From sequence record MK373782.1: a stretch of DNA of 64,000 nucleotides; one strand, given 5' to 3'. The first letter of the stretch is position 1. The number at the start of each line of letters is the position of its first letter. This DNA is from Escherichia phage vB_EcoM_KAW3E185. Under the pieces are notes generated by a model. The model made no database searches. It worked only from the letters and a program-made list of their open reading frames with translations, and was not told where the DNA came from. Below, in pieces: positions 40,566 through 41,352 of the stretch. The position numbers and the translations under genes are program-made.

Positions 40566-40722
40566 GCAAGTGTTTGTACGAAACGCCGGGATTCGAACCC
40601 GGTTATTAAGCAGTTGACGCTACTCAATATTTTTAAAAGGCCATATCTCGACCATATCCGAACGTTCCGTCAAAAACGCTACTCGGCTTACGGCAAAGAT
40701 ATTTCCTCGAATCGATAATTCG
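40566..40722 (-). ncRNA. tRNA-like structured RNA (about 155 nt; possibly a species-1/2-type stable RNA)
   Basis: Minus-strand RNA has 5' GAAACGGCG pairing with 3' CGGCGUUUCG (one mismatch) and a canonical T-arm CCGGGUUCGAAUCCCGG; boundaries approximate. Confidence 0.4.
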
Positions 40723-40832
40723 GTGCGCCGTTTCTGTTGTGATAGTAAAGAATCAGAACACAGTAAAACTGTGGGAGAAACTATACTCCAGGGAACATCA
40801 GTCCGACGACTTACCGGTAGCGACCCGGTTTC

Positions 40833-41177
40833 TCATTTTGGCATATCATCAATTTGCTCTCGACGCCGACGCCATAGATTAATCGCTTCATTAACACATT
40901 CGGCGTTTGGTATATGACGGCAATAATATAATGATTCGCGTTTCTGGAACCGATGTTGCAACGGGATTTCGTTTAAAAGATCTTTACGATCAAAGTATTC
41001 AAAACTAGTTAACCCTGAACGGTTTTTAATGAACTTCCAATGGCCGAATTCATTTTGAACATAGATGTAATCGGCATGCTGATAAAGTGAATTAATCAAT
41101 CGATGAGAAATAACTGTATCATATTCATTAAAATAAAACGTTAAATCATGAACTACCAAATAAATATTGCCTTTCAT
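40833..41177 (-). CDS. hypothetical protein (about 114 aa)
   Basis: ATG at 41177 preceded by GAGGA, just downstream of tRNA-Arg; the ORF track extends into the tRNA. Confidence 0.45.
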   Translation of the reverse strand: MKGNIYLVVHDLTFYFNEYDTVISHRLINSLYQHADYIYVQNEFGHWKFIKNRSGLTSFEYFDRKDLLNEIPLQHRFQKRESLYYCRHIPNAECVNEAINLWRRRREQIDDMPK

Positions 41178-41195
41178 ATTTTCCTCACTTATAAT

Positions 41196-41272
41196 TGGTC
41201 GAGACAGAAGGATTCTAACCTTCAACCTACGGATTAGAAGTCCGTTGCTCTATACAATTGAGCTATGCCTCG
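41196..41272 (-). tRNA. tRNA-Arg (anticodon UCU)
   Basis: Cloverleaf read by hand on the minus strand: D-arm GCTC...GAGC, anticodon stem ACGGA/TCCGT with loop CUUCUAA, T-arm GAAGGTTAGAATCCTTC, encoded CCA. Confidence 0.75.
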
Positions 41273-41275
41273 GAT

Positions 41276-41352
41276 TGGTGACCCAGACCAGATTCGAACT
41301 GGTAACCTTTCCCTTATGAGGGGACTGCTGCTAACCGTTGAGCTACAGGGCC
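41276..41352 (-). tRNA. tRNA-Ile (anticodon CAU, Ile2-type)
   Basis: Minus-strand GGCCCTGTAGCTCAACGGTTAGCAGCAGTCCCCTCATAAGGG...TTCGAATC...CACCA; anticodon loop CUCAUAA; called Ile rather than Met from the T4 tRNA set. Confidence 0.75.

What the first reader, a model, noticed from the sequence alone, without database searches (positions are those of the whole stretch)
40566..41352. tRNA cluster has only two tRNAs plus a tRNA-like RNA
T4 encodes eight tRNAs and two small stable RNAs in this region. Here I find only tRNA-Ile(CAU) and tRNA-Arg(UCU), 3 nt apart, followed by a 114-aa ORF and a roughly 155-nt RNA with an acceptor-like stem and canonical T-arm but no ordinary cloverleaf. The reduced and rearranged set could reflect host codon adaptation or a remnant of a larger cluster.
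Basis: seen in the sequence. Interest (0 to 1): 0.45.

Follow-up and report, generated by a model that had tools for sequence, protein, structure and literature searches.

The report
RB69-type phage tRNA and stable-RNA operon
This is the ordinary tRNA region of an RB69-like T-even phage: two tRNAs for the host's rarest codons, a small gene, and close copies of both of T4's long-known stable RNAs, including the tRNA-shaped "RNA C" whose function is still unknown.

Summary
ARAGORN and Rfam find exactly two tRNAs on the minus strand: tRNA-Ile(CAU) at 41352-41276 and tRNA-Arg(UCU) at 41272-41196, 3 nt apart. A 114-aa ORF and a tRNA-like RNA follow.

The layout is not new. It is the standard arrangement of RB69-like phages (Mosigvirus), annotated in RB69 and discussed in print since 2006. 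It looks like a shortened version of the T2 layout.

The tRNA-like RNA is the homolog of T4 RNA C (species 1 RNA). It differs from T4 at 2 of 137 positions and spans 40714-40578. So both stable RNAs are retained, not one.

Twenty RNA C homologs from eleven phage genera support one fold:
- a 7-bp acceptor stem;
- a T arm;
- a hairpin in the anticodon-arm position;
- a 70-nt arm where the D arm would be, whose loop UUGACG pairs with the hairpin loop CGUCAA.

Rfam has no model that detects this RNA.

The two tRNAs read AUA and AGA, which the phage uses 4-5 times more often than E. coli does. That fits the codon-supply idea. RNA C's function is still unknown; I infer a non-decoding tRNA mimic. Interest is low for the finding itself and moderate for RNA C.

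The parts
41415..41439 (-). MotA-dependent (T4 middle-type) promoter: TGCTTTA, 12 bp, TATTAT
   Evidence: Pattern match (6 matches in the window against 1.2 expected by chance). The same sequence sits upstream of tRNA-Gln in T4. The consensus (a/t)(a/t)(a/t)TGCTTtA placed 12+/-1 bp from the -10 element is taken from PMC2988021. Promoter activity is inferred, not tested.
41276..41352 (-). tRNA-Ile(CAU), the lysidine type that reads AUA; ARAGORN labels it tRNA-Met
   Evidence: Found (52.4 bits). It is 97% identical to T4 tRNA-Ile. The sequence shows C4-G69 and C5-G68. PMC1524935 identifies the CAU tRNAs of T4-like phages as lysidine-modified tRNA-Ile. CCA is encoded here, unlike in the T4 gene.
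41196..41272 (-). tRNA-Arg(UCU), reads AGA; not the ortholog of T4 tRNA-Arg
   Evidence: Found (71.1 bits). The alignment shows it is unrelated to T4 tRNA-Arg outside the universal positions. Its nearest relatives are in Mosigvirus, Salmonella phage S16 (95%) and Klebsiella phages.
40833..41177 (-). 114-aa ORF, RB69ORF150c family, function unknown
   Evidence: Listed. It matches PHROG 3355 at E = 5e-50, a family of unknown function. No Pfam family passes threshold. Homologs lie at the same position, just upstream of RNA D, in RB69 and, at about 67% amino-acid identity, in T2-type Tequatroviruses.
40722..40836 (-).
   Evidence: The block 40838-40494 is 88.9% identical to T4 71173-70825, which spans rnaD and rnaC. 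The 5' 45 nt and the 3' 25 nt are conserved, and the central segment matches T2. The consensus fold of 6 homologs has 4 compensated pairs. Its first bases overlap the ORF's stop codon.
40578..40714 (-).
   Evidence: The covariance model R1 scores it 152.5 bits, E = 4e-41, and it is the only hit in the window. It differs from T4 rnaC at 2 positions. The T4 GenBank feature equals the model hit plus 1 nt at each end. The structure is supported.
40668..40673 (-). Loop UUGACG at the tip of the long arm of RNA C (RNA positions 42-47); partner of the loop at 40614-40619
   Evidence: In some searches all 120 of 120 cells are paired across 20 sequences. The only changes are two compensatory double changes: UUGGCG/CGCCAA in the F48 clade and UUGAUG/CAUCAA in fHe-Yen9-01.
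40605..40628 (-). Hairpin in the anticodon-arm position of RNA C (9 bp counted; 6-nt loop CGUCAA at 40614-40619)
   Evidence: In one search, helix 4 has double-sided changes at 8 of its 9 pairs. The same hairpin is predicted independently.
40586..40602 (-). T arm of RNA C: CCGGG-UUCGAAU-CCCGG
   Evidence: In one search, helix 5 is 99% paired and 2 pairs show compensatory changes. It abuts the acceptor 3' strand CGUUUCG (40585-40579).
40527..40577 (-). Conserved 3' trailer between RNA C and the terminator, with three small hairpins
   Evidence: Folded. The sequence is conserved with T4.
40498..40526 (-). Intrinsic terminator: AGCCCC...GGGGCU followed by UUUUU
   Evidence: Folded. The homologous hairpin lies downstream of rnaC in T4.

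Best explanation
Window 41439-40498 (minus strand) is the tRNA and stable-RNA operon of an RB69-like T-even phage (Mosigvirus).

Shown:
- The order on the minus strand is a T4-type MotA-box promoter sequence, tRNA-Ile(CAU), tRNA-Arg(UCU), a 114-aa gene of unknown function, the homolog of T4 RNA D, the homolog of T4 RNA C, a conserved trailer and an intrinsic terminator.
- That junction has a 7-bp acceptor stem (CGAUUCG/CGUUUCG with two U.U pairs), followed by a discriminator U.
- It has a canonical T arm.
- It has a hairpin with a 6-nt loop in the anticodon-arm position.
- It has a 70-nt arm where the D arm would be, whose 6-nt tip loop is fully complementary to the hairpin loop.

Inferred:
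- One polycistronic transcript is made, as reported for T4. Host tRNA-processing enzymes (RNase P at the 5' ends, 3' nucleases) cut out the two tRNAs and RNA C, because RNA C keeps the acceptor and T-arm half of a tRNA that those enzymes recognise.
- The two tRNAs supply decoding capacity for AUA and AGA. These are the host's rarest codons, and the phage uses them 4-5 times more often.
- RNA C does not decode, because its anticodon-position loop is occupied by the internal loop-loop pairing. It most likely acts in trans as a mimic of the tRNA acceptor/T-arm half that occupies or titrates a factor binding that half. I put this last step at about 0.3. The target is unknown, and so is the function of RNA C in T4.
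For: - Identity and layout: the best DNA matches are Mosigvirus phages at 92-96%. RB69 and SA79RD carry the same tRNA-CAU / tRNA-Arg / ORF150c order.
- Only two tRNAs are found.
- RNA D plus RNA C are 88.9% identical to T4. RNA C differs from T4 at 2 of 137 positions, while the flanking genes are 68-83% identical.
- Covariance model: one hit in the window, 152.5 bits; no hits on ten chance pattern matches.
- Structure across 20 homologs from 11 genera: 91.6% of cells paired, against 31-46% for the slid controls; 18 pairs show double changes; 0 of 500 shuffles reach the observed score.
- RNAalifold and the single-sequence MFE fold give the same architecture.
- The loop-loop helix is paired in 120 of 120 cells and shows only compensatory changes.
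- RNA C is 137-139 nt in every lineage, even where the central domain is replaced.
- In other genera it sits inside tRNA arrays, 5-6 nt after the CCA of the preceding tRNA.
- T4's annotated RNA ends fall within 1 nt of the predicted acceptor-stem ends.
- RNA C persists in VR7, which has a single annotated tRNA across the 45 kb spanning its tRNA region.
- The promoter is conserved with T4 and the terminator folds as expected.
- Codon ratios are 4.1x for AUA and 5.3x for AGA.
- In T4, RNA C and RNA D are detected by northern blot and their roles are unknown (PMC9697503, PMC3014915). One primary transcript that ends after the species I gene is presumed for T4 (PMC2330249).
Against: - Nothing here shows transcription or processing in this phage; both are inferred from T4.
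- The decoy mechanism has no direct support, and no binding partner is known.
- The loop-loop pairing rests on only two independent compensatory events.
- The acceptor stem carries two U.U mismatches in 19 of 20 sequences. When the RNA D tail is included, the predicted fold prefers a different closing stem, GAAACG:CGUUUC.
- Most homologs encode U-ACA rather than U-CCA after the stem, so the state of the 3' end is unclear.
- Nolan et al. (PMC1524935) found that tRNA content correlates much less with codon-bias differences in T4-like phages other than T4.
- My E. coli sample is only 46 genes.
Confidence: 0.8

Rival explanations
1. RNA C is a cis-acting processing or stability module of the operon, not a trans-acting RNA. 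Its tRNA-like end would recruit RNase P and 3' nucleases to define transcript ends, protect the neighbouring tRNAs or the ORF150c mRNA, or order the processing pathway. On this view its accumulation as a stable RNA is a by-product.
For: - It is always embedded in tRNA operons at tRNA-like spacing.
- In T-even phages it is the last element before the terminator and has a conserved trailer.
- The RNA D tail can pair with its 3' strand in the precursor.
Against: - A processing signal would not need a 70-nt arm and a loop-loop contact conserved across 11 genera with compensatory changes.
- Its position varies: mid-array in Karamvirus, Moonvirus, Winklervirus and Gelderlandvirus, terminal in T-evens.
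- VR7 keeps it 760 nt away from its single tRNA.
- It accumulates as a discrete stable RNA in T4 (PMC9697503).
Confidence: 0.2
2. RNA C receives CCA and is aminoacylated, acting in translation or peptide transfer in the manner of the tRNA-like domain of tmRNA.
For: - It has an acceptor stem, a discriminator base and a T arm.
- The F48 clade encodes U-CCA, and C75-A76 is conserved elsewhere.
- T4 tRNA-Ile also lacks an encoded CCA, so CCA addition after transcription has a precedent in this operon.
Against: - ARAGORN finds no tmRNA.
- There is no G3.U70; position 3:70 is A-U or G-C.
- Most lineages encode ACA or UCA instead of CCA.
- The T4 annotation ends the RNA at U-A.
- The anticodon-position loop has 6 nt and is paired internally.
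- No conserved reading frame is present.
Confidence: 0.07
3. The element is a decaying tRNA pseudogene, a leftover of a larger cluster with no function of its own. This is the 'remnant' half of the reader's interpretation applied to the RNA itself.
For: - The tRNA set is clearly reduced relative to T4 and T2.
- tRNA finders sometimes miscall its 3' part as an odd tRNA: ARAGORN reports a 96-nt 'tRNA-Phe' in L011, and GenBank records carry 'tRNA-OTHER' and 'tRNA-Lys' labels over it.
Against: - It differs from T4 at 2 of 137 positions while the flanking genes are 68-83% identical.
- Its length is held at 137-139 nt across 11 genera.
- 18 base pairs show compensatory changes.
- It persists where nearly all tRNAs are lost.
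Confidence: 0.03
4. The stretch encodes small proteins, as many GenBank records annotate it ('hypothetical protein' over rnaC and rnaD).
For: - ORFs of 49 and 74 aa overlap the element.
- Several phage records place CDS features on it, including T2 PV648363 and many rows.
Against: - The substitutions preserve base pairs, not reading frames.
- The central domain is replaced in some lineages while length and helices are kept.
- T4 RNA C is an experimentally detected RNA (PMC9697503).
- The strand and frame of the annotated ORFs differ between records.
Confidence: 0.02

Closest known systems
Bacteriophage T4 RNA C (species 1 RNA, rnaC; NC_000866 70908-71046)
   Same: - It differs at 2 of 137 positions.
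- It has the same neighbours: RNA D upstream, and a conserved trailer and terminator downstream.
- It has the same predicted fold.
- T4's annotated ends match the acceptor-stem ends within 1 nt.
   Different: - The two differences, at RNA positions 65 and 104, both leave the pairing intact.
- Upstream context differs: an ORF lies between tRNA-Arg and RNA D here, while in T4 RNA D follows tRNA-Arg directly.
Bacteriophage T4 RNA D (species 2 RNA, rnaD)
   Same: The 5' 45 nt and the 3' 25 nt are conserved, with the same 5' hairpin and the same closing helix.
   Different: - The central roughly 45 nt are the T2-type variant, not the T4/RB69 type.
- It is 115 nt against 119 nt in T4.
- Its 5' end abuts an ORF stop codon rather than a tRNA 3' end.
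RB69 tRNA region (AY303349 74420-74941: tRNA-Met(CAU), tRNA-Arg(UCU), RB69ORF150c)
   Same: The two tRNAs, the ORF, the order and the strand are the same. The region is the type example of this layout and was discussed in PMC1524935.
   Different: - RB69's record does not annotate rnaC or rnaD, although both are there.
- The spacer between the tRNAs is 6 nt in RB69 and 3 nt here.
- RB69 carries the other RNA D variant.
T2 / T2L tRNA region (PV648363; AJ880101, PMC2330249)
   Same: It has the same module, tRNA-Arg / ORF150c-like gene / RNA D / RNA C, and the same RNA D variant.
   Different: T2 has nine tRNAs (Gln, Leu, Gly, Pro, Ser, CAU, Tyr, Asn, Arg) and an extra ORF. The window keeps only CAU and Arg, and its Arg is only about 75% identical to T2L's.
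tRNA-like domain of tmRNA, and the tRNA-like modules of bacterial Y-RNA-like YrlA and of plant-virus 3' tRNA-like structures
   Same: All of these work like the acceptor/T-arm half of a tRNA attached to a non-tRNA body. This comparison rests on general knowledge and is a resemblance only.
   Different: - There is no sequence or model match: ARAGORN finds no tmRNA, and the only YrlA hit (18.7 bits against a gathering score of 69) lies on the true tRNAs, not on RNA C.
- There is no G3.U70 and no tag reading frame.
- RNA C is a free-standing 137-nt RNA inside a tRNA operon.

Membership tests
tRNA (Rfam RF00005), for the two tRNAs | Cloverleaf scoring above the Rfam gathering threshold of 29 bits, with a 7-nt anticodon loop | tested here: met
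   71.1 bits (Arg UCU) and 52.4 bits (CAU). ARAGORN agrees.
tRNA (Rfam RF00005), for RNA C | Cloverleaf with a D arm and a 7-nt anticodon loop, scoring above the gathering threshold | tested here: not met
   There is no tRNA hit on 40578-40714 even at E<=10. The only hit there is tRNA-Sec at 16.6 bits against a gathering score of 47, E = 3.9. ARAGORN makes no call. The D arm is replaced by a 70-nt arm, and the loop in the anticodon position has 6 nt.
tRNA-Ile2 (CAU anticodon modified to lysidine, reads AUA) | CAU anticodon plus homology to an experimentally established tRNA-Ile of this class | tested here: met
   It is 97% identical to T4 tRNA-Ile. PMC1524935 assigns the T4-like CAU tRNAs to this class. 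C4-G69 and C5-G68 are present in the sequence; I recall these as TilS determinants from memory.
tRNA-Ile2 (CAU anticodon modified to lysidine, reads AUA) | Lysidine at position 34 and charging with isoleucine | not testable with these tools
   This needs RNA mass spectrometry or aminoacylation assays.
T4 RNA C (species 1 RNA) family | Sequence and structure homology to T4 rnaC | tested here: met
   The sequence differs from T4 rnaC at 2 of 137 positions. The covariance model scores it 152.5 bits, against 153.2 bits for T4 itself.
T4 RNA C (species 1 RNA) family | Location in the tRNA operon, downstream of RNA D and upstream of the operon terminator | tested here: met
T4 RNA C (species 1 RNA) family | Accumulates as a discrete stable RNA of about 140 nt during infection | not testable with these tools
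   This is shown for T4 only (northern blot, PMC9697503). It needs a northern blot or small-RNA sequencing for this phage.
T4 RNA D (species 2 RNA) family | Sequence homology to T4 rnaD over its conserved ends, and a position directly upstream of rnaC | tested here: met
   The central segment is of the T2 type. The consensus fold is kept. The single-sequence fold is not better than shuffles (z = -0.9).
tmRNA | tRNA-like domain with G3.U70, a tag reading frame and pseudoknots | tested here: not met
   ARAGORN finds no tmRNA. Position 3:70 is A-U or G-C in all 20 homologs. There is no conserved reading frame.
GIY-YIG homing endonuclease (SegB-like), for the 114-aa ORF | GIY-YIG domain | tested here: not met
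   No Pfam family passes threshold; the best is DUF2654 at 15.3 bits against a cut-off of 25. The PHROG 3355 match has no known function.

The most novel reading that the evidence does not exclude
RNA C may be a widely conserved mimic of the acceptor/T-arm half of a tRNA that Rfam does not detect. Its anticodon-position loop would be permanently masked by an internal loop-loop contact. Together with tRNA-Ile(CAU), it is one of the two elements of the T-even tRNA region that survive when the other tRNAs are lost. On this reading it acts in trans on a host or phage factor that recognises the tRNA acceptor end or elbow, for example a tRNA-processing enzyme or a tRNA-targeting defence toxin. It would then be a non-coding anti-host or regulatory RNA rather than a relic.
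Probability: 0.2. Interest if true: 0.6.

Novelty: already known. Interest (0 to 1): 0.25.

Why it matters
The finding itself is routine. An RB69-like phage has the RB69-like tRNA region, and the odd RNA is T4's RNA C, known since the 1970s.

Two things still have some value:
1. Annotation. Most of the GenBank records sampled here leave RNA C and RNA D unannotated, or cover them with spurious 'hypothetical protein' or odd-tRNA calls, and Rfam has no model that detects them. A covariance model such as the one built here would fix that.
2. The open question of what RNA C does, unanswered for about fifty years. The comparative fold gives concrete mutants to test: an acceptor stem and T arm, and two mutually complementary 6-nt loops. 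The persistence of RNA C in a phage with a single tRNA argues that it has a function of its own.

Tried and rejected
1. More tRNAs: a permissive Rfam scan at E<=10 and ARAGORN found none. Sensitive BLAST against the T4 region found no remnants of Gln, Leu, Gly, Pro, Ser or Thr.
2. Rfam identity for the RNA: nothing at gathering threshold. The weak tRNA-Sec, isrK and GA-cis hits are chance level.
3. tmRNA: rejected (no G3.U70).
4. SegB-like homing endonuclease for the 114-aa ORF: no domain found.
5. RNA D as a paralog of RNA C: the RNA C model does not hit RNA D. The similarity of its 5' hairpin to a T arm was seen by eye only.
6. GAAACG (RNA D tail) as the acceptor 5' strand: the MFE fold favours it when the tail is included. 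I rejected it as the conserved stem because homologs in eight genera have no RNA D upstream yet keep CG[A/G]U[U/C]CG paired to the 3' strand, fully Watson-Crick in fHe-Yen9-01.
7. A mini-ORF (UUG-CCG-UAA) behind the invariant GAGGA: not conserved in the lineages where the central domain is replaced, so I dropped it.
8. A D-loop-like contact between G73-G74 and T-loop positions U55-C56: only one lineage-level co-change supports it (GG to CG together with UUCGAAU to UGCAUGC in Kanagawavirus and Winklervirus). It is suggestive, not established.
9. More diversity from IMG/VR: two pattern scans added few new variants. I did not use the metagenome scan.
10. Literature: Miller et al. 2003 is not held. 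Searches found no paper assigning a function to RNA C or RNA D.
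Full report
**What is there**

ARAGORN on the whole window finds two tRNA genes, both on the minus strand: tRNA-Arg(UCU) at 41196-41272 and a CAU tRNA at 41276-41352. Rfam at gathering threshold finds the same two, at 71.1 and 52.4 bits, and nothing else in 64 kb. A permissive scan of 40300-41500 at E<=10 adds no tRNA. The tRNAs are 3 nt apart. The 114-aa ORF runs from the ATG at 41177 to the stop at 40835-40833.

**Whose genome this is**

The 1.1-kb region matches RB69-like phages (genus Mosigvirus) at 92-96% over its full length. RB69 itself and phage SA79RD carry the same order: tRNA(CAU), tRNA-Arg(UCU), RB69ORF150c. The RB69 tRNA set, and the reading of the CAU tRNA as a lysidine-type tRNA-Ile, were published in 2006 (PMC1524935). 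The 'reduced' cluster is therefore the normal state of this genus.

**The tRNA-like RNA is T4 RNA C, and RNA D is here too**

In T4 the minus-strand order is:
- tRNAs Gln, Leu, Gly, Pro, Ser, Thr and Ile;
- segB;
- tRNA-Arg;
- rnaD (119 nt, species 2 RNA);
- rnaC (139 nt, species 1 RNA);
- the terminator.

Window 40838-40494 aligns to T4 71173-70825 at 88.9% identity, which covers rnaD, rnaC and the trailer. It differs from T4 at 2 of 137 positions, and both changes keep base pairs.

Its conserved 5' and 3' parts match T4. Its central part is the variant found in T2, not the one in RB69 or T4.

Reviews and a recent transcriptome study state that RNA C and RNA D are made in T4 infection and that their roles are unknown (PMC3014915, PMC9697503). 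One recent paper reports a convergent SNP in rnaD during host adaptation of a T4-like phage (PMC12685909).

**Structure of RNA C**

BLAST with the window, Proteus-phage and Yersinia-phage copies and two IMG/VR pattern scans recovered homologs in eleven genera:
- Tequatrovirus, Mosigvirus and Gaprivervirus;
- Kanagawavirus, Tegunavirus and Gelderlandvirus;
- Winklervirus, Karamvirus and Moonvirus;
- Marfavirus;
- further uncultured phages.

All copies are 137-139 nt from the first acceptor base to the discriminator, even where the central 50 nt are replaced.

I tested a structure on the 20 distinct sequences (alignment A1). It forms standard pairs in 91.6% of cells, against 31-46% for slid controls. 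Eighteen pairs show changes on both sides, and 0 of 500 shuffles reach the observed score. RNAalifold on the alignment and the single-sequence minimum-energy fold of the window copy give the same architecture. The single-sequence fold is -50.1 kcal/mol, z = -4.4.

In RNA positions, where position p is window base 40715 minus p, the elements are:
- Acceptor stem: 1-7 with 130-136, CGAUUCG/CGUUUCG. Pairs 4 and 5 are U.U in 19 of 20 sequences and Watson-Crick in fHe-Yen9-01. Pair 3 switches between A-U and G-C.
- Junction helix: A8-G10 with C75-U77.
- Long arm: positions 13-72.
- Long-arm tip: the arm ends in a 5-bp stem and the 6-nt loop UUGACG (42-47).
- Single-stranded linker: A/U-rich, positions 78-86.
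- Hairpin in the anticodon-arm position: 87-110, with the 6-nt loop CGUCAA (96-101).
- T arm: 113-129, with the loop UUCGAAU.
- Discriminator: U137.

The two 6-nt loops are perfectly complementary in all 20 sequences. The only variation is two compensatory double changes: UUGGCG/CGCCAA in the Klebsiella F48 clade and UUGAUG/CAUCAA in fHe-Yen9-01. I read this as a loop-loop ('kissing') contact, supported by two independent events.

A covariance model built from A1 hits the window once, at 40578-40714(-), with 152.5 bits. It hits T4 at the annotated rnaC minus one base at each end. It does not hit ten chance pattern matches.

**Which acceptor stem?**

If the 21 nt upstream are included, the energy minimum pairs GAAACG (the RNA D tail) with CGUUUC and folds the true 5' strand into a small hairpin. 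That alternative can exist only where RNA D lies upstream. In eight genera RNA C follows a tRNA or an ORF directly, and the CG[A/G]U[U/C]CG stem is the one that is kept. The T4 RNA's annotated 5' end also agrees with it.

**Context in other phages**

In Karamvirus, Moonvirus, Winklervirus and Gelderlandvirus, RNA C sits inside tRNA arrays. It starts 5-6 nt after the CCA of the preceding tRNA and ends a few nucleotides before the next tRNA. That is the spacing of a tRNA gene, and it argues for excision by the tRNA-processing machinery.

After the discriminator most copies have ACA. The F48 clade has CCA and fHe-Yen9-01 has UCA.

T2 has nine tRNAs, then the ORF150c homolog, RNA D and RNA C. VR7 has one annotated tRNA (CAU) across the 45 kb spanning its tRNA region, plus an ORF, RNA D and RNA C. 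As the clusters shrink, tRNA-Ile(CAU) and RNA C are what remain.

**The operon in the window**

The 90 nt upstream of tRNA-Ile are homologous to the T4 leader that precedes tRNA-Gln. They contain TGCTTTA, 12 bp, TATTAT at 41439-41415, identical in layout to T4. This fits the MotA-box consensus (PMC2988021). Downstream of RNA C there is a conserved 50-nt trailer and a GC-rich hairpin with a U tract at 40526-40498. For T4, one primary transcript ending after the species I gene is presumed (PMC2330249). I infer the same here.

**The two tRNAs**

The CAU tRNA is 97% identical to T4 tRNA-Ile and, unlike the T4 gene, encodes its CCA. The tRNA-Arg(UCU) is not the T4 ortholog. It is 95% identical to that of Salmonella phage S16 and about 75% to T2L's.

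Codon counts in 85 window ORFs give AUA 13.2 and AGA 8.0 per 1000. In 46 annotated E. coli K-12 genes the figures are 3.2 and 1.5. The ratios are 4.1 and 5.3. For the codons read by the six T4 tRNAs that are absent here (UUA, GGA, CCA, CAA, ACA, UCA), the ratios are only 1.2-2.6.

It is a correlation, not a test.

**The ORF**

The 114-aa protein belongs to PHROG 3355, of unknown function, and has no Pfam domain above threshold. Homologs sit in the same place in RB69 and, at about 67% identity, in T2-type phages. There is no sign that it is a homing endonuclease like SegB.

**How it most likely works**

- Shown: the identity of all parts, the fold of RNA C, and its conservation.
- Inferred from T4 and from anatomy: one transcript, with tRNA-type processing of the tRNAs and of RNA C.
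- Inferred with low confidence: RNA C keeps the half of a tRNA that processing enzymes and acceptor-end binders see, while its anticodon-position loop is locked. So it does not decode and probably acts as a mimic of the tRNA acceptor/T-arm half. Its target is unknown.

The main rival is a purely cis-acting processing module. The tmRNA-like, pseudogene and small-protein readings are poorly supported.

**Verdict**

The feature is already known. The finding itself has low interest. The comparative fold of RNA C is a modest by-product that makes an old open question easier to test.

Noticed in passing
window 41196-41272 (-): The tRNA-Arg(UCU) has U at D-loop position 19 and A at T-loop position 56 (T loop UUAGAAU, D loop AAUUGUAUA), in place of the near-universal G19-C56 tertiary pair. 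This looks like a compensated tertiary-pair swap. The positions were assigned by eye from the Rfam alignment.
   Followed up: partly
window 40722-40836 (-): The RNA D central segment is the T2-type variant, although the flanking genome is RB69-like. The RNA D plus RNA C block is 96-97% identical to several Tequatroviruses but only 90% to RB69. This suggests recombination between genera within the tRNA region.
   Followed up: partly
window 40759-40773 (-): A terminator-like hairpin, CACAG-UUUUA-CUGUG followed by UUCUGAUUCUUU, lies inside the T2-type central segment of RNA D. It is absent from the T4/RB69 variant. Whether it stops any transcription before RNA C is unknown.
   Followed up: no
L036 2570-2841 (T2 PV648363); L011 652-747; rows: Many GenBank phage records place 'hypothetical protein' CDS, 'tRNA-OTHER' or 'tRNA-Lys' features over rnaC or rnaD. 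ARAGORN calls a 96-nt 'tRNA-Phe' on the 3' part of RNA C in Cronobacter phage Pet-CM3-4. In SA79RD the T arm of RNA C is annotated as a terminator.
   Followed up: partly
L004 about 1655-1790 (Enterobacter phage CIP9); the same sequence begins in L007 after 741: Just 3' of RNA C, Kanagawavirus phages carry another uncalled element with a T arm (GUAGG-UUCGAGC-CCUAU), a possible AUUUGU/ACAAAU acceptor stem and a GG-containing D-like loop, but about 75 nt between the D and T arms. There is no ARAGORN or Rfam hit. It may be a second tRNA-like stable RNA.
   Followed up: partly
L008, L015, L018, L019 (Klebsiella F48 clade), 3' end of RNA C: This clade encodes U-CCA after the acceptor stem, whereas most lineages have U-ACA and fHe-Yen9-01 has U-UCA. 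C75-A76 is conserved throughout. This bears on whether the RNA ever carries a CCA end.
   Followed up: no
A1 columns 75-76 and the T loop (CIP9, L035, LC53): In the three sequences whose T loop is UGCAUGC or UGCAUCC instead of UUCGAAU, the unpaired GG just before the invariant CC becomes CG. This could mark a D-loop-like contact with T-loop positions 55-56. It may be a single evolutionary event.
   Followed up: partly
window-wide: 1641, 8228, 27116, 41415, 55972, 63870: There are six matches to the MotA-box middle-promoter pattern TGCTTTA-N11-13-TANNNT, against 1.2 expected by chance. Five are on the minus strand.
   Followed up: no
window 41432-41947 (-): A 171-aa ORF (RB69ORF151c family, PHROG 2290, unknown function) is inserted between the tRNA.2 homolog and the tRNA leader. 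T4 has no gene there.
   Followed up: no
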